Shown piece after piece: positions 1,016 to 37,085 of a DNA stretch of 64,000 nucleotides (the stretch's first letter is position 1; each line of letters starts with the position of its first letter). This DNA is from a virus (Duplodnaviria; Heunggongvirae; Uroviricota; Caudoviricetes), in the IMG/VR virus record IMGVR_UViG_2687453522_000001; one strand, 5' to 3'. The notes under the pieces were generated by a model. It did no database searches. It worked only from the letters and a program-made list of their open reading frames with translations, and was not told the origin of the DNA. Both the position numbers and the translations under genes were made by a program.

Positions 1016-2445
1016 TCCTCCTCATACGAAATATTAAAGGTGGAGTTTTCTGTATCCAGATAAACGAAATCGTAAAAGCCGTTGGACTCATTCCACTCGA
1101 CAAATTCCAGATAAAAGTCGCGGAAATAACCCAGCGTTTCGATAAATGCCCAAACGTCTTTTTTCTTGATTAGGATGTACTTGCCGACACGGTTCGGATC
1201 AAAGAAAGTTGAGTCACGCCCAAATTTTGTTTCCAGTGCCGACTTCAGCTCATCAGTCACGTTCTCAATGGTCAGGCTTGCCGATATCCGCCCAGTGATA
1301 GTGATCTTAAAGGGGAGTTTTCTGACCTCTTTATACGAGAATTTCTTGTTCAACTCATTCGGCACCTTCTTAAAGGCAGCCAGGATCATTTCTTCAAGCT
1401 CTGACTGGCTTTTGTTTGGATGCCATCCTGAAATAAATATCTTATTGATATTCCGAACATTATAAGCACCATCTAATTTCTCTTGCTGGCCTTCGCCCCA
1501 TGCCTTTACCCAGGACAGTCCCGGGATGTTACGCACCAAAAAATACGTATAGTCCCCGCCCCATACGACCTGATCATCATAGGCAAGGTAATATTGTGCA
1601 CGATTACGTGTGATCTCCGTTGTTTCGGCATCGGTACCTGCGGTTATGGGTGTCGTTGTCTTAACTGAAATCAAATTAGCTAAATTAGCCGCAGAATCGA
1701 CAGGCGTCAGGTTTTGGCCAGCAACCAGGGTTATATCTCCGTTGGTGCACCATACCTTAAGTGTAATGGTCGAGCCTTCTGGCGGTATTTGCCCAATTAG
1801 CCCATCACCGAATCGAACCCCCAACTGCTCGGATGGCTTATAAAACTCAACGTAGACCTGGCTTTTACTACCGGCTAACCGGAACATAGTGCTGGAAGAC
1901 CACTGCGTGGTCTTACCATCGGTCGTCACGAATACTTCCAGCTTATAGCAGACAGCAGTGAGAGCCTTTGATAACACGACTTCCAGAAATTCTTTGGCTG
2001 CCGTAACGGTATATGTCACCTCCTGGATTTCCAACTGTGCCACTTCTACCGTACCGGTGCCGTCAACCAACCTGCATACATCCATAGTCATGTAAGGGTA
2101 CTGGTCGTCAGATATTAAAGGCATGTTTTTGGGGATTACCGCTGGGGCATCTTCACTTGTGGCGGTGATCTCAATCATCCCCGATGACGGTGTTGGCTTG
2201 GTACCAACGTAACTATTCGTTTCTGCCGCTGCCAGGATAGAGGAACGCCGCGTCGCGGTCGATATAAAGCCTTCAGACAGCGCCGCATCGGCATACTGAA
2301 AGCACCTGTAGACAATCTGGGTAATAAACAATGTCAGCATCGAGACAAATTGAGAGCCGACAAACTTCGACCAGAATGAATCTTTCTCGACAAGCTCTTC
2401 AAACTCTGCACGAATACTGTCTTTAGTCGGTGTTGTTTTACTCAT
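1012..2445 (-). CDS. baseplate structural protein (J-like by position and size)
   Basis: 477-aa ORF, translationally coupled on both sides within the tail/baseplate block. Confidence 0.5.
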   Translation of the reverse strand: MSKTTPTKDSIRAEFEELVEKDSFWSKFVGSQFVSMLTLFITQIVYRCFQYADAALSEGFISTATRRSSILAAAETNSYVGTKPTPSSGMIEITATSEDAPAVIPKNMPLISDDQYPYMTMDVCRLVDGTGTVEVAQLEIQEVTYTVTAAKEFLEVVLSKALTAVCYKLEVFVTTDGKTTQWSSSTMFRLAGSKSQVYVEFYKPSEQLGVRFGDGLIGQIPPEGSTITLKVWCTNGDITLVAGQNLTPVDSAANLANLISVKTTTPITAGTDAETTEITRNRAQYYLAYDDQVVWGGDYTYFLVRNIPGLSWVKAWGEGQQEKLDGAYNVRNINKIFISGWHPNKSQSELEEMILAAFKKVPNELNKKFSYKEVRKLPFKITITGRISASLTIENVTDELKSALETKFGRDSTFFDPNRVGKYILIKKKDVWAFIETLGYFRDFYLEFVEWNESNGFYDFVYLDTENSTFNISYEEE

Positions 2446-2801
2446 AGCACCACGTCCTGTGTGATAGTTATATCCCTGATACGAATGGATATTTTCAACT
2501 TATCAAAAGCATCTCCCTCGGCTACTGACAAGCCAGAAATCGGTATGTCAGGTAAATCTACCGTCAGTTTTTGCAACAGCATTGCCTCAACCGCAATTTG
2601 AACATGCGACAAGTTGGTCGGTTCGTGTTTAAACTGCGGTAAAACATTGCCCCATGACGGATCTCCGTATACCTCACCCTGATAAGTGTTTAGCCACTCA
2701 TATAAACGAGCGCCCCAGGCCTCCTCCTGGGACTCATACGTTTTTACGCCGGATAACTCCAGCGTCAGTAAAGGATCAATTTCATTATTGTTGGCCATCA
2801 A
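2442..2801 (-). CDS. small baseplate wedge-like protein
   Basis: 119-aa ORF immediately downstream of the tape-measure-like gene with overlapping stop/start; assignment by position and size. Confidence 0.4.
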   Translation of the reverse strand: MMANNNEIDPLLTLELSGVKTYESQEEAWGARLYEWLNTYQGEVYGDPSWGNVLPQFKHEPTNLSHVQIAVEAMLLQKLTVDLPDIPISGLSVAEGDAFDKLKISIRIRDITITQDVVL

Positions 2802-5800
2802 TCAACTCTCGCGTAGTCATTCATCAACGGATCATCAATTGACAGTGGCACCGTGCGCATAACGCCCGGTTGAGGCGTGCTGACCTTTACGACAGTTCCC
2901 TGGCCTTTCGCCGAGTCTTTAGTGTGCTCTTCAATCCTGGCAAGCAATGAGGTCATCTGCGCAAACAGCCGCTTCGTTTCACCATCAAGTGAAACGGTAT
3001 TATCAGCCAACTGCATTGTCGGCTTGGCACCGGAGCCGCCAAGGTCACTAATAACCTGTCCGTCTATCTGCATACGACCGGTTGGTTGCTGCAAATCGTT
3101 GGCGGCAGTCGTCACCTGGGACGTGGAGGCTGGTTCAGGCGCATTATTTTTCCGCATCCCCGGCGAGTTGCGGAGTTTATCAAATAGTCCATCAATCCCC
3201 ATTTGTGCGCCGAGTTGGTCAAAGTAACTTGAGTTGCTGGCCACCGGACGCGCCTCTTCAACTGGCATCGGAGTATCAACATACACATTGCCAGCTGCTG
3301 TTGCGGTCCCCTTCCCTCGTGCACGTTCTTCGAGCGTTCCCTGAACGACTTCCCGACGCATACCCCGGCCATTCATGAATTTGTTGACCAGATCGTTAAC
3401 GCCAACAGCATTGCCAATTTTGTCTACCAGACCGCCTTTCTCAAACGGGCTATCACCAGGGGTAAACGCCAGGCCAGTAGACTGATCGATAACAGCGTTA
3501 TCAGGCAGTGGTCCCCTCACTCCATATTGCGCCCCACCCTGTGCTCCTGCTCCAGGTGTATAGATTTCACCACCTAAATAGCGAGCACGATGAGTATTGA
3601 CCTTGATCGCGTACTCACGGTTTTCTTTCGATAAGTCACCTGTGCCTTTTTTCCACTTATTGATAGTGCCAAACCCAGCATTATATGCAGTGATGGCCTC
3701 GTTTAAGTCTCCATTGGCTTGCTTCAGATATTTGCTCATGAGAAGAGCCGCAGCTTCTGCCGATTTCACAGGATCAAACGATTCACCTTCAGCTAAGCCA
3801 GTCTCTTCACGAGCAATCCCCGTGAACTGAAACATCCCCAGAGCACCGGTTTGGGATTTTGCATACGGATTACCACCAGATTCAGTTGCAGCAATCGCGT
3901 AAAGAGTGCCTTCTGGAAGACCGTATTTATTCTCTAGTTCAGCAAAATACGGAGCCAACTTATCGAGATTTGCCTTACCTTCAGCTCCAAGACTTCCGAC
4001 TTTTACATCCAAGTTGCCATTATTGTAGGTATCCGCAGCTTTCTGAATATCATTCCTGGTTCCAGTAGTATTACGCGACGATGATGACGAGCTATTTTGA
4101 CCAATAGCTTTATCAATTTTCTGCAACGCGCTATTGCCCGTTTCTACAGCATTTGCATTGATTATCTGATTGGCAGTTTCTTTAACTGTTTTATTGCTAT
4201 CTTTCGCCGTATCTAGGGATGCATTTACAACACGAGTGACAATATTAGCCTTTTTAGAGGTATATTCAGTCTTAGGAGCATTGTCCTCCTGACGTTCTTT
4301 AGCAGGTGTTTTTAATTCAGGTGTAACCTCTTTCGCATCCGCTTTATTGACTAGCTTTGATGCAACCCAGGCCACTGGGGTGCTCTGAACAGCGGCATCT
4401 GCAACCTCACCTGAAAGCTCTTTTGCGGCACTCCATAGATTACTGCCAGCTTCTTTAATGTATTTCCCTGGGTTCTTAATGAAATCAATTGCACTATCAA
4501 TTGCATCACTGAAAACCTTTTTCAGGTTATCGACAGTAAAGAAGTCTTTGATGGCGTCTAATTTTTCGTTCAGACTCTTGGTTGTGTCACTGAACCAGGC
4601 TGAAATAGCATCGCCAATCTTGGCTGTGTAATCGTTGAATGTTGTGGATATGGTGTCACCAAGGTTAGAAATATATGTTTCTAAATTGGTAATCCCACTA
4701 TCAATGGCCTGGGCAATACTTTCCGTCGAAAATGATTGCAACATATTGCCGATATCCTCAAATCCAAGTGATTTGAGAACGCCACCAATGGCATTGCTAA
4801 TACCAGATACCAGTCCTCCCATATCGAGAACGTTAGCCAGTGTATAAGCCGCTTTTTGCTGAAAAGATGGATCTTCCCCATCCTTAAGCCCAAAGGTCCG
4901 ACGTTGTGCTTCTGTATCATTCCAACCGGTTACCGCATCATAGATACCTCCAGCCACCGTGCCGACTAGCGGAATTGCGCGTAAAGCCCCCTTTGCAAAA
5001 GCCTTAACACCTAGTTTCTCCAATCCCTTAGTTGCAAGTTTTCCGGCACCGCGAGTAGCCAATTCGCCAGCTTCTTTGGCAGCAGCTTTTTTCCCACCAA
5101 AGCCCAATAAGCTTGCAACTTTTTTTATACCTAAAGCGCCTAGTGCCATCGAGCCAACTTTCTTTAGTGCCCCACGGCCAAAAATAAGGGAAGCAATACC
5201 ACCGGCCCCCTTCCCTAACAGGCTAAATAATTTGGACAGCAAGCCGCCCTTCTTTTTCCCGGTGTTTTTGGCTATCTGATCAAGGGCGCTGAGAATCTTG
5301 TCATTGCCCTCTTTAATTTCGCTGGTCTGATCCTGAAGTTCCTGAACCGTCCGTTTTTGGGTGTTAACCTGAACGACATCGGCACTATTTTGCGATTTAC
5401 GCCTAAAAAAACCTTTTCTACGGCTGTTATCGTCATTGCCACGAATCACATCGGCAATAGACTTTCTGGCGCCATTAAGCGATCCACCAACTTCTTTTGA
5501 TATCCCGCCAAGCTCCTTCCCTGCTGCCCACAATGGACCAGCAACGGCATAACCTAACGCATCGACGGCACGAGTCTCTGAAGGGTTACCTATGCCTTCA
5601 GCTACTTTTGACAGTTTTTTTAATAAACCTGATTCAGCATTTAGACGCTCATCATCCTCTTTGCGCCTGGCCTTTTCAGCACGTTCAGCACGGGCATCTT
5701 CCGCTGCGGCCTTACTCCCTGACTTTCCAATAAAACGACCACGCGCATCGCGTTGGTTTTGGCTTTTTTGCGCACCGCCTTTTTGATCGAACATTTCGCG

Positions 5801-6493
5801 AGCGTGTTCGGCTGCTTCGGTCCGTTGTGCCTTTATATCCTCTGATATAGCCTTCCTGCGTCTTTTTTTACCCTTTGGTGTAGTTGATTTGGCCTGCTGT
5901 TCCTGTTGAGCAATGCCCTCCTGAACTACACGAGAAACGTCCCCTAAATTAAGCCGTTTCATTGCGTCAACAATAGGGTCTACTGATGGCGCATTGGCCA
6001 CAAAGTCTGGCCGGGAATTTTCGATTGTTCGATTTAATGCCGACACACTGCGAGATACTGGGTCAACCGTTGCAACGCGTTCCCCTTTCAAATCACGAGC
6101 GAGTTTGACCGTTTCTAACCGCTGTGCTTTAACATCCTCTGTTATTGCCTCTCTTCGTCTATTTGGGGGATTGTGCGCTGTTGGTGCAGCCTGCTGTTCA
6201 CGGTTAGTGACTTTGTCCTCCCGTATACGAGAAGCGTCCCCTAAATTAAGCCGTTTCATTGCGTCAACAATAGAGTCCACTGATGGCACATTGGTCACAA
6301 AGTCAGGACGTGAATTTTCGATTGTGCGATTTAATGCCGACACACTGCGAGAGACAGGATCAACAGTTGCAACTCGTTCCCCTTTCAAATCTTCAACAGC
6401 TTCCCGAATACCTGCAAGCTCTTCCAGCTCTTTCGCGCTGGCGGTTTCAACTGTCCTTATAACATCGTCAATATTGGCGTTTTTTCTTTCCAT
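2798..6493 (-). CDS. sit: tail tape-measure-like protein with lytic transglycosylase domain (P1 Sit-like)
   Basis: 1231 aa; SLT-type motif block (GMFQFTGIAREETG ... AITAYNAG), Gly/Ala/Lys-rich membrane-interacting segment, internal 99-aa tandem repeat. Confidence 0.8.
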   Translation of the reverse strand: MERKNANIDDVIRTVETASAKELEELAGIREAVEDLKGERVATVDPVSRSVSALNRTIENSRPDFVTNVPSVDSIVDAMKRLNLGDASRIREDKVTNREQQAAPTAHNPPNRRREAITEDVKAQRLETVKLARDLKGERVATVDPVSRSVSALNRTIENSRPDFVANAPSVDPIVDAMKRLNLGDVSRVVQEGIAQQEQQAKSTTPKGKKRRRKAISEDIKAQRTEAAEHAREMFDQKGGAQKSQNQRDARGRFIGKSGSKAAAEDARAERAEKARRKEDDERLNAESGLLKKLSKVAEGIGNPSETRAVDALGYAVAGPLWAAGKELGGISKEVGGSLNGARKSIADVIRGNDDNSRRKGFFRRKSQNSADVVQVNTQKRTVQELQDQTSEIKEGNDKILSALDQIAKNTGKKKGGLLSKLFSLLGKGAGGIASLIFGRGALKKVGSMALGALGIKKVASLLGFGGKKAAAKEAGELATRGAGKLATKGLEKLGVKAFAKGALRAIPLVGTVAGGIYDAVTGWNDTEAQRRTFGLKDGEDPSFQQKAAYTLANVLDMGGLVSGISNAIGGVLKSLGFEDIGNMLQSFSTESIAQAIDSGITNLETYISNLGDTISTTFNDYTAKIGDAISAWFSDTTKSLNEKLDAIKDFFTVDNLKKVFSDAIDSAIDFIKNPGKYIKEAGSNLWSAAKELSGEVADAAVQSTPVAWVASKLVNKADAKEVTPELKTPAKERQEDNAPKTEYTSKKANIVTRVVNASLDTAKDSNKTVKETANQIINANAVETGNSALQKIDKAIGQNSSSSSSRNTTGTRNDIQKAADTYNNGNLDVKVGSLGAEGKANLDKLAPYFAELENKYGLPEGTLYAIAATESGGNPYAKSQTGALGMFQFTGIAREETGLAEGESFDPVKSAEAAALLMSKYLKQANGDLNEAITAYNAGFGTINKWKKGTGDLSKENREYAIKVNTHRARYLGGEIYTPGAGAQGGAQYGVRGPLPDNAVIDQSTGLAFTPGDSPFEKGGLVDKIGNAVGVNDLVNKFMNGRGMRREVVQGTLEERARGKGTATAAGNVYVDTPMPVEEARPVASNSSYFDQLGAQMGIDGLFDKLRNSPGMRKNNAPEPASTSQVTTAANDLQQPTGRMQIDGQVISDLGGSGAKPTMQLADNTVSLDGETKRLFAQMTSLLARIEEHTKDSAKGQGTVVKVSTPQPGVMRTVPLSIDDPLMNDYARVD
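5930..6397. repeat. two tandem copies of a 297-bp unit inside sit (in frame, about 99 aa each)
   Basis: CGTCCCCTAAATTAAGCCGTTTCATTGCGTCAACAATAG... occurs at 5938 and again at 6235, offset 297 bp; protein shows LKGERVATVDPVSRSVSALNRTIENSRPDF twice. Confidence 0.85.
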
Positions 6494-6574
6494 GATCTTA
6501 TCGCCTACCGTTTCGGTTTAAGTTTTTCTTCCAGTTTCTCCAACAGGAAAAACGCATAGGATTCAGTAAGCCTT

Positions 6575-7456
6575 TCAGCGTCCTGAATCGGTATACCCCC
6601 ATACAAAACCAGGTTGGACACTAAGGTCTGATAGCTTTTCAATCCCCACCTGTGGAATGAAGTCGGTAGCCCGAAAGGGCACCCACAGACGGGTATACGC
6701 ACCCTCTGTGGACTCCTTTGTATCCTGGTTTGGGCATTTGTGCGGCGGGAGACGAAGACGCATTTCGCCTTTATCGATGTAGCACGGTAAACCATGTTCG
6801 AGCTTTTCATGAGCCAGCCGGATGTGTGCCGCCAGCTTCATAAATTCAGTATCAATGGCCATCCGTTTGATCGTTTCATAACGACGCTCAGCCTGCTCTT
6901 CACGAGTACCGCTAACATCGTTATAAAGTTCACACTGATAAGCGAATTCCCAAAAACGCAAATCAACGATCGCTTCTTTGAATTCCGCGTCGTCTTCAGG
7001 TGGCAATGCTGCTCGGCGCATCTCCAGCATTTCCATTGCCCAACCATCAAGCGGCACGATACGCCATTGATAAGGCACGCCCTCTACAGACACCTCAATA
7101 TCGTCAATGAACGGTTCCACTTCCAGGACCTGGATATCTTCAGCCAGAGCATTCATATCGCAATCGTAATAATGCTCTTTACCGCAATGTTTACAGGTGT
7201 AGGTAAATGTCTCGATCGGTGTTTCGCGGGAGCCAGTAAATATCCACCATAACGCGGTAATCCGGTCCTGTGCCGTCCATTTCAGTGGATCATGTTTCGC
7301 AGCTTCAGCCAGCAAGGCTTTTAAATACGCTGTTGTCTGCTGTTCTTGTTCCTCCGGTGTTATCGAGTTGAAACGCATCGCATCAGCAATATTTGGCTGA
7401 CGGAACTGGATTAATTCAGTTGGCCGCGATGGTAGCGGGAAAAGGGGTAAAAGCAT
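6575..7456 (-). CDS. tail-module protein of unknown function (Cys-rich CKHCGKEHYYDCDM motif)
   Basis: 293-aa ORF directly upstream of sit on the same strand; possible Zn-binding cluster. Confidence 0.5.
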   Translation of the reverse strand: MLLPLFPLPSRPTELIQFRQPNIADAMRFNSITPEEQEQQTTAYLKALLAEAAKHDPLKWTAQDRITALWWIFTGSRETPIETFTYTCKHCGKEHYYDCDMNALAEDIQVLEVEPFIDDIEVSVEGVPYQWRIVPLDGWAMEMLEMRRAALPPEDDAEFKEAIVDLRFWEFAYQCELYNDVSGTREEQAERRYETIKRMAIDTEFMKLAAHIRLAHEKLEHGLPCYIDKGEMRLRLPPHKCPNQDTKESTEGAYTRLWVPFRATDFIPQVGIEKLSDLSVQPGFVWGYTDSGR

Positions 7457-8889: not shown

Positions 8890-9783
8890 ATGCATTCTTT
8901 ACAGAAATACATAAAACATAAATATACTCACTTAACTTTTTTTCTCTCATTACTTTTCTTCATGATATTTGAATCTCGAGAAGATATTATCAAGAAAACA
9001 TTATCTTTTTCTCTCGATGAAGTTTTACCATTCTTAATGTTTGCGTTCTTCTCCGCCTTTATCAGCATAACGATAAAGGAAAAGATAGCAAAAAAATACC
9101 CAGAAACAAACGATGGGATTACCATTATAGCTTTAATCTTTGGTGTAACGCTATATAGTGTATTTATATTATATTATTTATATGGTGATGTATACCAATC
9201 CACAATTGCTTTACTTATAAGTTCTGTGCTACTTGGTTCTGGGTGGTGGGTTCAGGCTACTGTGAGTAAAGTAGCCGCAAGAAAATCACACACCTTAAAT
9301 ACACTAATGAATCAAAGAAACAGTGAATTATTTCACAAAAAAGTCTCATCGGTAGCGAATACGTTCGGGCTTAGAAAAACCATAAATGAAATTATTGCCA
9401 AACAAAGACTTATCCCAAATGATAAAGATTTAAAAAATAAAAAGGTCCATGATAAATACATATCAGCAGGTAATGATATGTTCTTCGTTCTTAATTATTA
9501 TGAGTTTATCTGTTCAGGAATAATAAATGGAGACTTTGATGAAGATTCAATGAGAGAATGTCTTGGACAAATTGTTCCAGGTCTCGAAGTTAGAGCATTT
9601 CATTTTATAAGAATTGCAAGAGAAATTTCAGGGAGTAGCTGCTTCTGTAATTTTGTTGCTGTTTCAGATAAATGGTCTACTAATGGAGGCTCTCTTATTC
9701 TCAGACACGAGAAAGGAGAACCTGTGATCAATAACCTGACCCATTGCTTTGAAGAAACAGCCTGTTATAACACAACATCTTAA
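8890..9783 (+). CDS. polytopic membrane protein with C-terminal soluble domain, unknown function
   Basis: 297 aa; about four hydrophobic helices in the first 125 aa, then a Cys-containing soluble domain; strongly AT-rich coding sequence. Confidence 0.6.
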   Translation: MHSLQKYIKHKYTHLTFFLSLLFFMIFESREDIIKKTLSFSLDEVLPFLMFAFFSAFISITIKEKIAKKYPETNDGITIIALIFGVTLYSVFILYYLYGDVYQSTIALLISSVLLGSGWWVQATVSKVAARKSHTLNTLMNQRNSELFHKKVSSVANTFGLRKTINEIIAKQRLIPNDKDLKNKKVHDKYISAGNDMFFVLNYYEFICSGIINGDFDEDSMRECLGQIVPGLEVRAFHFIRIAREISGSSCFCNFVAVSDKWSTNGGSLILRHEKGEPVINNLTHCFEETACYNTTS

Positions 9784-10847: not shown

Positions 10848-11044
10848 GTTTTTTTAGTTTCATATGCTACATTAACTCGCTTGCGTGCTAATGCATTTTC
10901 GGTTTATCCTAAACAAGCATCTTAGTAAAACGGATGCCGGGATTGGAACCCCGGATAATGCAAAAGGCGACACAGACGCCAAAAGCGTCTTTTTTATGTC
11001 ATGCCATCGCACAACCATACGTAGCACATAGCTACGAGATCAAT

Positions 11045-11124
11045 GGTAGTGCTGGCTGGGCTGCCGAAAGGCAGGCCGGTTCCCTTTTGCGCCGGTAGTT
11101 CCAACCCAGTCAGTGCTACCGCCA
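11045..11124 (+). ncRNA. c4-like antisense RNA (tRNA-like structured RNA of the immunity I region)
   Basis: 16-bp stem (GGTAGTGCTGGCTGGG / CCCAGTCAGTGCTACC) enclosing two hairpins; loop CCCTTTTGC is complementary to GCAAAAGG at the icd RBS (11162-11170) and at 10960-10969; followed by GCCA. Confidence 0.4.
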
Positions 11125-11180
11125 TTGAGATTGGAACCTCACGCGGTAGCTCCTTAAATTAGCAAAAGGAGGCTGCCATT

Positions 11181-33409: not shown

Positions 33410-33485
33410 GATGGTGTAGCTCAGCGGTTAGAGCGGTTGACTGTTAATCAACGGGTCGATGGTTCAAATCCATCCACCATCGCCA
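33410..33485 (+). tRNA. tRNA-Asn (anticodon GTT)
   Basis: 76-nt cloverleaf: acceptor GATGGTG/CACCATC, anticodon loop CTGTTAA, T-loop TTCAAAT, encoded CCA. Confidence 0.85.
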
Positions 33486-33487
33486 AT

Positions 33488-33563
33488 GCCGGTTTAGCTC
33501 AGTTGGTAGAGCGCCTGCCTTGTAAGCAGGATGTCAGCGGTTCGAGTCCGTTAATCGGCACCA
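33488..33563 (+). tRNA. tRNA-Thr (anticodon TGT)
   Basis: 76-nt cloverleaf: acceptor GCCGGTT/AATCGGC, anticodon loop CTTGTAA, T-loop TTCGAGT, encoded CCA. Confidence 0.85.
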
Positions 33564-37009: not shown

Positions 37010-37085
37010 GGCCCTTTAGCTCAGTGGTTAGAGCTGGCGACTCATAATCGCACGGTCACCGGTTCAAGTCCGGTAGGGGCCACCA
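37010..37085 (+). tRNA. tRNA with CAT anticodon (Ile2/Met type)
   Basis: 76-nt cloverleaf: acceptor GGCCCTT/AGGGGCC, anticodon loop CTCATAA, T-loop TTCAAGT, encoded CCA. Confidence 0.85.

What the first reader, a model, noticed from the sequence alone, without database searches (positions are those of the whole stretch)
5930..6397. In-frame 297-bp tandem duplication inside the tape-measure/transglycosylase gene
Two near-identical 297-bp units produce a duplicated 99-aa segment in the 1231-aa protein. Tape-measure length scales with tail length, so this predicts a longer tail or extended injection needle than relatives with one copy, or a recent slippage event that may be polymorphic.
Basis: seen in the sequence. 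Interest (0 to 1): 0.4.

Follow-up and report, generated by a model that had tools for sequence, protein, structure and literature searches.

The report
Diverged 99-residue duplication in P1 tape measure
The tail "ruler" gene (sit) of this P1-like phage-plasmid carries a real but old and diverged in-frame duplication of a 99-residue N-terminal module; it is one allele of a widespread 1/2/3-copy polymorphism that should give longer tails, which nobody has yet measured.

Summary
The window is a P1-like phage-plasmid. The gene at 2798-6493 (-) is sit, P1's tape-measure protein with a lytic transglycosylase domain; here it is 1231 aa, against 1140 aa in P1. Two in-frame 297-bp units lie head to tail at 6095-6391 and 5798-6094. 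They are not near-identical: 78.5% nt identity overall, with a conserved 165-nt "head" (91.5%, dN/dS about 0.12) and a diverged 132-nt "tail" (62%, dS about 0.87).

P1, P7, SJ46 and distant Salmonella relatives carry one unit. The extra unit's diagnostic "tail A" occurs in 136 of 478 PLSDB plasmids and 197 of 471 E. coli genome records that hold this part of sit. Intact three-unit alleles also exist (1338 aa). Their middle units are head/tail chimeras, the expected product of unequal crossover within the heads.

This is therefore an established, recombining copy-number polymorphism, not a recent slippage event. Phage phi456, which has two units, forms plaques and myovirus particles, so the allele works. 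The predicted effect is a tail about 15-18 nm (about 4 rings) longer. That is inferred from ruler experiments in other phages and remains unmeasured. It is an ordinary kind of variation, but it offers a ready test of whether Sit is P1's ruler.

The parts
2798..6493 (-). sit gene: 1231-aa tape-measure / structural injection transglycosylase of a P1-like phage-plasmid
   Evidence: ORF. PHROG 2533 E=0. 93-98% nt identity to sit of P1, P7, SJ46 and phi456. Synteny pmgC-tub-pmgB-sit-pmgA-bplA-gp16 as in P1. Protein identical to the annotated Sit of plasmid NZ_CP029117.
6392..6493 (-). N-terminal 34 codons preceding the repeat; the protein sequence is the same in almost all P1-like alleles examined
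   Evidence: Identical in all five phages aligned. 0 nonsynonymous and 5 synonymous differences versus P1. Near-invariant across the IMG/VR alleles.
6095..6391 (-). Unit 1 (aa 35-133), the extra unit: head 6227-6391 plus 'tail A' 6095-6226
   Evidence: Absent from P1, P7 and SJ46. Tail A is 62% identical to tail B. Tail A occurs only in multi-unit alleles among the 85 alleles classified.
5798..6094 (-). Unit 2 (aa 134-232), orthologue of the single unit of P1: head 5930-6094 plus 'tail B' 5798-5929 (contains the basic patch KGKKRRRK)
   Evidence: 92.9% nt identity to the P1 unit, against 79.1% for unit 1. Aligns with the single unit of P1, P7 and SJ46.
6056..6288 (-). Junction-linked 'private' block: from unit 1 nt ~104, across the unit 1/unit 2 junction, to unit 2 nt ~39. 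It holds all 49 substitutions never seen in single-unit alleles.
   Evidence: Comparison with the consensus and variant pool of 32 distinct single-copy units.
3620..3949 (-). SLT lytic transglycosylase domain (aa 849-958)
   Evidence: Pfam PF01464, E=2.6e-27, 95 bits against a cutoff of 21.3.

Best explanation
The gene is sit, the tape-measure protein of a P1-like (Punavirus) phage-plasmid, with a peptidoglycan-cutting SLT domain near its C-terminus. Directly after a conserved 34-residue N-terminus it carries two tandem copies of a 99-residue module that P1 itself has only once.

Each module has two parts. The 55-residue 'head' is kept almost unchanged by purifying selection at the protein level. 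The 44-residue charged 'tail' evolves fast.

The two-unit allele is one state of a 1/2/3-unit polymorphism. The conserved heads serve as substrates for unequal homologous recombination, which adds or removes whole 297-bp units in frame and shuffles the flanks with single-unit alleles. Only the roughly 230 nt around the duplication junction keep their old divergence. The duplication is therefore either ancient or was brought in from an unsampled diverged relative. It is not a recent slippage event.

Inferred, not shown: the module lies in the part of Sit that is threaded through the tail tube. Each extra unit should then delay tube termination and lengthen the tail by about 15 nm if alpha-helical (1.5 A per residue), or about 4.5 tube rings at P1's own ratio of 52 rings per 1140 residues. 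That predicts roughly 56-57 rings for this phage and 60-61 for three-unit phages.
For: Gene identity. Literature: Sit is a virion protein assigned as the TMP (PMC9024508); the P1 tail has 52 tube and 53 sheath rings (PMC12810830).

Duplication and divergence. Head dS 0.28, dN 0.033; tail dS 0.87, dN 0.45.

One unit is ancestral: P1, P7 and SJ46, the distant Salmonella Sit proteins of 1076-1081 aa and P0017 each have a single unit.

Frequency: tail A is in 136 of 478 PLSDB plasmids and 197 of 471 E. coli complete-genome records that match this part of sit. Among 85 alleles classified (IMG/VR and genome-collection loci plus the reference phages and plasmids and the window), 63 are B, 20 are AB and 2 are AAB.

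Three-unit alleles: an intact 1338-aa ORF in NZ_CP068934, and others in pEC12-3, pXH987-OQX and vB_EcoM-813R1. Their middle units are a unit-2-type head plus tail A, with different crossover points on different parental haplotypes. This is the signature of at least two independent unequal crossovers within the heads.

Recombination: both copy-number states occur on both downstream haplotypes. The private substitutions are confined to the junction block.

Function: two-unit phage phi456 forms plaques and myovirus particles (PMC10967188).

Ruler precedent: duplicating the N-terminal region of the TP901-1 TMP lengthened the tail about 30% without loss of titre, and deletions shortened it at 0.145 nm per residue (PMC5099701).
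Against: No tail length has been reported for any two- or three-unit P1-like phage.

Sit is unresolved in the P1 cryo-EM maps, so it is unknown whether residues 35-232 lie inside the tube.

The AlphaFold2 model of residues 1-345 has low confidence (pLDDT 44.7). It shows only about 57-60% helix per unit, with long unstructured linkers, so the length added per residue is uncertain.

In TP901-1 about 127 TMP residues at the two ends do not count towards tail length, and this module starts only 34 residues from the N-terminus.

Strong purifying selection on the head (dN/dS about 0.12) suggests a specific binding role rather than a passive spacer.

Whether the duplication is ancient or introgressed could not be resolved. 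No donor carrying tail A was found among 1.84 billion representative proteins.
Confidence: 0.6

Rival explanations
1. The duplication is length-neutral. The N-terminal module lies outside the measuring part of Sit: in the terminator/neck lumen, disordered, or compressible. Extra units then change nothing visible, and the polymorphism drifts or hitch-hikes with successful plasmid lineages.
For: The module begins 34 residues from the N-terminus. TP901-1 data indicate that about 127 terminal TMP residues do not contribute to length. The AF2 model is low-confidence and partly disordered. Tail A shows almost no diversity (130 of 136 plasmid records at 99% identity or more), which is compatible with recent hitch-hiking. 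Sit length also varies at other sites, from 1100 to 1143 aa among one-unit alleles.
Against: In every TMP tested experimentally, in-frame insertions or duplications between the terminal anchoring segments changed tail length proportionally: lambda gpH and T4 gp29 (from my own knowledge) and TP901-1 (PMC5099701). The extreme N-terminal 34 residues are retained in front of the repeat in all alleles, as expected if they, and not the module, form the terminal anchor.
Confidence: 0.28
2. The unit is a dosage-sensitive functional module. The conserved head would be a docking site, for example for the presumed chaperone PmgB, the tail terminator, or DNA/host factors via the basic patch. Copy number would then tune assembly or ejection rather than, or in addition to, tail length.
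For: The head is under strong purifying selection in both copies (dN/dS about 0.12, 10 synonymous versus 4 nonsynonymous changes). Its core (I..AMK.LNLG) survives in Salmonella relatives that are only about 45-50% identical in the N-terminal part of Sit. The module is found in no protein other than P1-type Sit (3 hits in 1.84 billion representatives). Tail B carries KGKKRRRK.
Against: There is no domain hit, no confident fold and no experimental interaction data. The extra unit's tail lacks the full basic patch (NPPNRRRE), so the units are not equivalent. One unit suffices for P1.
Confidence: 0.1
3. Recent replication slippage, or a private duplication in this isolate.
For: The arrangement is tandem, in frame and exactly 297 bp.
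Against: The copies differ at 64 of 297 nt, with dS 0.28-0.87. The same allele occurs in more than 300 independent complete records from humans, pigs, cattle, poultry, gulls and water on several continents. It also occurs on two different downstream haplotypes.
Confidence: 0.02
4. Assembly artefact (a mis-expanded repeat).
For: None beyond the general risk that applies to repeats.
Against: The units are 21.5% diverged, so they cannot be confused by an assembler. Independent complete assemblies agree to the base.
Confidence: 0.01

Closest known systems
[quoted passage not shown]
   Same: Orthologous gene in the same operon position, 93% nt identity, same SLT domain and same conserved 34-residue N-terminus.
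   Different: P1 has one 99-aa module and this allele has two. Several smaller indels make up the rest of the net 91-aa difference.
Sit of Escherichia phage phi456 (WNL49372, 1231 aa) and the annotated Sit of plasmid NZ_CP029117 (E. coli AR435)
   Same: The same two-unit allele: 22 of 1231 residues differ from phi456 and 0 of 1231 from the AR435 plasmid protein. phi456 is an infectious myovirus.
   Different: Nothing of substance. The allele is deposited, but I found no description of the duplication.
Engineered duplications and deletions in tape-measure proteins: TP901-1 TMP (PMC5099701); lambda gpH and T4 gp29 (from my own knowledge)
   Same: An in-frame duplication of an N-terminal/internal TMP segment. 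It is expected to lengthen the tail in proportion and to be tolerated.
   Different: Those are laboratory constructs or short 11/18-aa repeats in siphophages. This is a natural, diverged 99-aa module in a contractile-tail phage that segregates as one, two or three copies.
Tandem repeats as contributors to TMP length variation (PMC13585406, abstract; 11/18-aa repeats of TP901-1, PMC5099701)
   Same: Repeat-mediated expansion and contraction of a ruler protein.
   Different: The unit here is much longer, only two or three copies occur, and the unit is bipartite (conserved head plus variable tail). That survey reports that contractile-tail phages rely mostly on homorepeats rather than tandem repeats.

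Membership tests
P1-type Sit (Punavirus tape measure / structural injection transglycosylase, PHROG 2533) | Full-length sequence homology to P1 Sit | tested here: met
   PHROG 2533 E=0, 2439 bits, profile covered to its end. 93.4% nt identity to P1 sit and 98.3% to phi456 sit.
P1-type Sit (Punavirus tape measure / structural injection transglycosylase, PHROG 2533) | SLT lytic transglycosylase domain in the C-terminal third | tested here: met
   PF01464 at aa 849-958, E=2.6e-27, above the gathering score.
P1-type Sit (Punavirus tape measure / structural injection transglycosylase, PHROG 2533) | Position in the late operon pmgC-tub-pmgB-sit-pmgA-bplA-gp16 | tested here: met
   PHROG assignments of the neighbouring ORFs match the P1 annotation.
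Tape-measure (ruler) proteins in general | Protein length determines tail length; insertions lengthen the tail | not testable with these tools
   Needs EM of one-, two- and three-unit phages. No published tail length was found for a two-unit phage.
Tape-measure (ruler) proteins in general | Located inside the tail tube lumen of the virion | not testable with these tools
   Sit was detected in P1 virions by LC-MS/MS (PMC9024508) but is not resolved in cryo-EM; only low-resolution density is seen in the baseplate centre (PMC12810830).
Tape-measure (ruler) proteins in general | Predominantly extended alpha-helical structure across the measuring region, including the duplicated module | tested here: inconclusive
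   AF2 on aa 1-345: pLDDT 44.7, no tertiary fold, 57-60% helix per unit with linkers of about 30 residues. [quoted passage not shown]
Recent slippage-type tandem duplication | Copies identical or nearly so; confined to one isolate or clone | tested here: not met
   78.5% identity with dS up to 0.87. Present in 136 PLSDB plasmids and 197 E. coli genomes.
Copy-number polymorphism maintained by unequal homologous recombination | Alleles with different whole-unit copy numbers, and chimeric units at the new junctions | tested here: met
   One-, two- and three-unit alleles exist. The middle units of three-unit alleles are a unit-2 head plus tail A, with two different crossover points. L072 is a single-unit allele with a unit-1-like head plus tail B.

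The most novel reading that the evidence does not exclude
The 99-residue module may be a natural length cassette. P1-like phage-plasmids would then circulate as discrete tail-length classes of about 52, 56-57 and 61 tube rings, created and reverted by unequal crossover in the conserved heads. Copy number would be under selection, for example through matching of envelope or capsule thickness, or through the efficiency of DNA delivery. The conserved head would double as a repeated docking site for the tail-assembly chaperone. If so, this allelic series would give the first direct proof that Sit, rather than gp6, is P1's ruler, and it would be a rare natural example of ruler evolution in a contractile-tail phage.
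Probability: 0.15. Interest if true: 0.5.

Novelty: new member of a known kind. Interest (0 to 1): 0.3.

Why it matters
P1 is a classic model phage, yet the identity of its ruler was historically disputed between gp6 and Sit. The assignment to Sit rests on size, predicted structure and proteomics, and cryo-EM could not resolve the protein.

A natural, viable allelic series of sit with one, two and three copies of a 99-residue module provides a simple decisive test. If Sit is the ruler, tails should grow by about 4 rings per unit. Total Sit length ranges from 1100 to 1338 aa.

The finding also shows that tail length may be a variable, recombination-driven trait among the P1-like phage-plasmids that spread resistance genes in Enterobacteriaceae. 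Beyond that it is an ordinary example of repeat-mediated variation in a tape-measure protein.

Tried and rejected
Tandem Repeats Finder missed the repeat: two copies at under 80% identity fall below its threshold.

Pfam gave no domain for the module; only SLT was found.

BLASTP of the unit against the rest of Sit found no further degenerate copies.

An exhaustive phmmer search with unit 1 against 1.84 billion representatives found only 3 proteins, all P1-type Sit fragments or fusions. No donor of tail A and no wider family turned up.

The genome-contig scan (one genome per species) returned only two useful loci, both with a single unit.

The first homology search returned mostly truncated Sit fragments.

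The AF2 model was too uncertain to say whether the module is extended, so I ran no structure search on it.

Literature searches found no tail measurements for phi456, 673R5 or 813R1, and no description of sit copy-number variation.

I considered whether the DNA repeat itself is the functional element (iterons or other binding sites). I rejected this because the heads differ mainly at synonymous sites while the protein sequence is conserved.

I considered that single-unit alleles might be deletion derivatives of an ancestral two-unit allele, because their heads look like unit-1 5' halves joined to unit-2 3' halves. I judged this less likely because distant relatives have one unit and because tail A has almost no diversity while single-unit alleles are diverse. 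The polarity is not strictly proven.

The + strand ORF 5994-6521 (175 aa) is a mirror product of the repeat and has no support as a gene.

Full report
**1. What is there**

The window is a P1-like phage-plasmid (Punavirus). The ORF at 2798-6493 on the minus strand encodes 1231 aa. It matches PHROG 2533 over its whole length (E=0) and carries one Pfam domain, SLT lytic transglycosylase, at aa 849-958 (E=2.6e-27). Megablast finds it in 21 phage records. It is 98.3-98.4% identical over 100% of its length to phi456 and vB_EcoM-673R5, and 93-95% identical, but only 86-96% covered, to P1, P7, RCS47, SJ46 and JL22.

In the P1 reference the orthologue is sit, annotated as 'putative structural injection transglycosylase; putative tail ruler'. 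The neighbours are pmgC, tub, pmgB upstream and pmgA, bplA, gp16 downstream, as in P1. The window's Sit protein is identical to the annotated Sit of E. coli AR435 plasmid NZ_CP029117.

**2. The repeat**

The repeat finder reports one direct-repeat family in 4 kb: 5883-6094 versus 6180-6391, 84% identity over 212 nt, spacing 297. Tandem Repeats Finder does not report it.

In the protein, residues 35-133 (unit 1, window 6095-6391) and 134-232 (unit 2, window 5798-6094) align without gaps.

The units are not near-identical. They differ at 64 of 297 nt (78.5% identity). Each unit has two parts:
- The first 165 nt (55 codons, the 'head', DLKGERVATVDPVSRSVSALNRTIENSRPDFV.N.PSVD.IVDAMKRLNLGD.SR) are 91.5% identical. 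They differ by 10 synonymous and 4 nonsynonymous codon changes (dS 0.28, dN 0.033).
- The last 132 nt (44 codons, the 'tail') are only 62% identical (dS 0.87, dN 0.45).

Selection therefore acts on the head at the protein level, not on the DNA repeat. The divergence rules out a recent slippage event.

**3. Comparison with relatives**

P1 (1140 aa), P7 (1130) and SJ46 (1137) have one unit. It is orthologous to unit 2: 92.9% identity, against 79.1% for unit 1. The extra unit is therefore unit 1, whose 'tail A' (IREDKVTNREQQAAPTAHNPPNRRREAITEDVKAQRLETVKLAR) differs from 'tail B' (VVQEGIAQQEQQAKSTTPKGKKRRRKAISEDIKAQRTEAAEHAR). More distant Sit proteins have a single, much-diverged unit. These are the Salmonella plasmid proteins of 1076-1081 aa and P0017, which are about 45-55% identical to the window's Sit in the N-terminal part. 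One unit is therefore the ancestral state.

**4. Frequency**

The 5' 844 nt of sit match 478 PLSDB plasmids and 471 E. coli complete-genome records (469 of 5426 genomes). The 132-nt tail A, which megablast cannot cross-match to tail B, is found in 136 of those plasmids and in 197 E. coli records. It is at least 99% identical in 130 of 136 and in 192 of 197. Eight plasmid records and nine E. coli records have two tail-A places. Carriers come from humans, pigs, cattle, poultry, dogs, gulls and water, and include a few Salmonella, Klebsiella and Shigella plasmids.

I classified 85 alleles: the IMG/VR and genome-collection loci, the reference phages and plasmids, and the window itself. Of these, 63 are B, 20 are AB and 2 are AAB. 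No single-unit allele has tail A. Sit length ranges from 1100-1143 aa (one unit), through 1225-1263 aa (two units), to 1338 aa (three units). Smaller indel hot spots lie near window aa 457-491, 716 and 880.

**5. How copy number changes**

Three-unit alleles occur in the following records:
- pRIVM_C029554_1: an intact 4017-nt ORF encoding 1338 aa.
- pEC12-3 and pXH987-OQX, where the gene is annotated as frameshifted.
- vB_EcoM-813R1, where the annotation is fragmented.

In each case examined (pRIVM_C029554_1, pEC12-3 and pXH987-OQX) the middle unit is a chimera of a unit-2-type head and a tail A that is 100% identical to the window's. At the 14 head positions that distinguish the window's two heads, the pRIVM middle unit reads 22222222222112 on a parental unit 1 of 11111111111112. 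The pEC12-3 middle unit reads 22222222222222 on a parental unit 1 of 11222111112122. These are two different crossover points on two different haplotypes. That is what unequal homologous recombination within the conserved heads predicts, and it implies at least two independent triplications.

The reciprocal product, a single unit with a unit-1-like head and tail B, is seen in L072. Both copy-number states occur on both major downstream haplotypes, so the repeat region recombines freely with the rest of the gene.

**6. Age and origin**

I compared both units with the pool of 32 distinct single-copy units. Unit 1 has 45 private substitutions, all from its nt 104 to its end. Unit 2 has 4 private substitutions, at its nt 27-39. 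Everything else matches variants that circulate in single-unit alleles. The only 'old' DNA is thus a contiguous block of about 230 nt that spans the duplication junction (window 6056-6288).

I read this pattern as follows. The flanks are continually exchanged with single-unit alleles. The junction-linked block cannot be exchanged without losing the duplication, so it retains its deep divergence. Deep divergence (dS about 0.9) combined with almost no diversity in tail A fits two scenarios: a long-lived allele that expanded recently, or recent introgression from an unsampled diverged lineage. No donor was found: phmmer with unit 1 against 1.84 billion representative proteins gave only three P1-type Sit hits. 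The question of origin remains open. The claim 'not recent slippage' is firm.

**7. What it does**

The following points are shown:
- Sit is a P1 virion protein assigned as the tape measure from size, helical prediction and the SLT domain (PMC9024508).
- The P1 tail has 52 tube and 53 sheath rings, and Sit is not resolved in the maps (PMC12810830).
- Two-unit phage phi456 forms plaques and myovirus particles (PMC10967188).
- In TP901-1, duplicating the N-terminal TMP region lengthened the tail about 30% without loss of titre. Deletions shortened the tail at 0.145 nm per residue, and about 127 terminal residues did not count towards length (PMC5099701).

The following is inferred. The 34-residue N-terminus stays in front of the repeat in all alleles, so it is the likelier terminal anchor, and the module would then lie in the measuring part. 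On that basis, 99 extra residues add about 14.9 nm if alpha-helical, or about 4.5 rings at P1's own ratio of 52 rings per 1140 aa.

The uncertainty is real:
- The AF2 model of aa 1-345 has pLDDT 44.7. It predicts helices joined by long unstructured linkers, about 57-60% helix per unit, and no fold.
- The conserved head looks more like a binding motif than a spacer.
- No tail measurement exists for a multi-unit phage.

I put the 'longer tail' inference at about 0.6, 'no visible effect' at about 0.28, and a dosage or binding role at about 0.1.

**8. Comparison with what is known, and novelty**

Membership in P1-type Sit is established by homology, SLT domain and synteny. Membership in 'ruler proteins' in the functional sense rests on the literature for P1 and cannot be tested here. 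Repeat-mediated variation in TMP length is a known phenomenon (PMC5099701; PMC13585406). The two-unit allele itself is already deposited many times, including in phi456. I found no description of the polymorphism.

I therefore file it as a new member of a known kind. The gene is ordinary and the mechanism of variation is ordinary. It does have practical value as a natural one/two/three-unit series for testing whether Sit is P1's ruler.

**9. Verdict**

Interest 0.3.

Noticed in passing
window 6505-6810 (-), overlapping the 3' end of pmgB (6575-7456) and filling the pmgB-sit spacer: A 101-aa ORF in the +1 frame relative to pmgB runs 70 nt past the pmgB stop, to 12 nt before the sit ATG. It is open in P1 as well (1 aa different). 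In a distant Salmonella P1-like plasmid (L093 2276-2497) the part lying in the 'intergenic' spacer is conserved as protein (GGIPIQDAERLTESYAFFLLEKLEEKLKPKR versus GGMPVQDAEKLTEPFAFFLMEKLKEKLKPKR), with mostly third-position differences. The 21 nt CCTGGTTTTGTATGGGGGTAT at the frame overlap are identical in both. This may be a programmed-frameshift extension of PmgB, like the G/GT tape-measure chaperone pair, or a small unannotated gene.
   Followed up: partly
sit, window aa ~800-995 (about 3510-4095), and other alleles (P0020; about 19% of the aligned alleles): Some P1-like Sit alleles (the 1124-aa class, e.g. P0020) carry a clearly different sequence across the SLT-domain region. This shows up as a block of small indels with gap fraction 0.19. 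It suggests cassette-like swapping of the muralytic domain. Further length hot spots lie at window aa 457-491 (Gly/Lys/Ala-rich), after aa 716 (inserts up to 37 aa) and at aa 880.
   Followed up: partly
L007 (NZ_CP195557, pEC11-AU-EG2) 1609-4148: In this P1-like plasmid, sit is split by an IS100 (IS21-family) insertion, so that element is probably a defective phage.
   Followed up: no
L005/L006 (pEC12-3, pXH987-OQX) and L096 (vB_EcoM-813R1): These three-unit sit alleles are annotated as frameshifted or fragmented. In pEC12-3 and pXH987-OQX the gene is also 95 nt longer than three units predict. I did not resolve whether these are true pseudogenes or sequencing errors.
   Followed up: partly
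window 8890-9783 (+): A 297-aa DUF4760 protein (PF15956, E=7.7e-14) on the opposite strand sits just beyond pmgC, where P1 has the sim superimmunity genes. It has no PADLOC hit. It may be an accessory or exclusion gene that replaces sim.
   Followed up: partly
window 10917-10995 (+) and 11039-11126 (+); 33410-33485, 33488-33563, 37010-37085 (+): Rfam finds isrK and the C4 antisense RNA (the P1 immI region). There are three tRNA genes (Asn-GTT, Thr-TGT, Met-CAT), as expected for a P1-like genome.
   Followed up: no
window 5994-6521 (+): A 175-aa TTG-initiated ORF lies antisense to the repeat, and its translation is itself repeated. It is a mechanical by-product of the duplication, with no evidence of coding.
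   Followed up: yes
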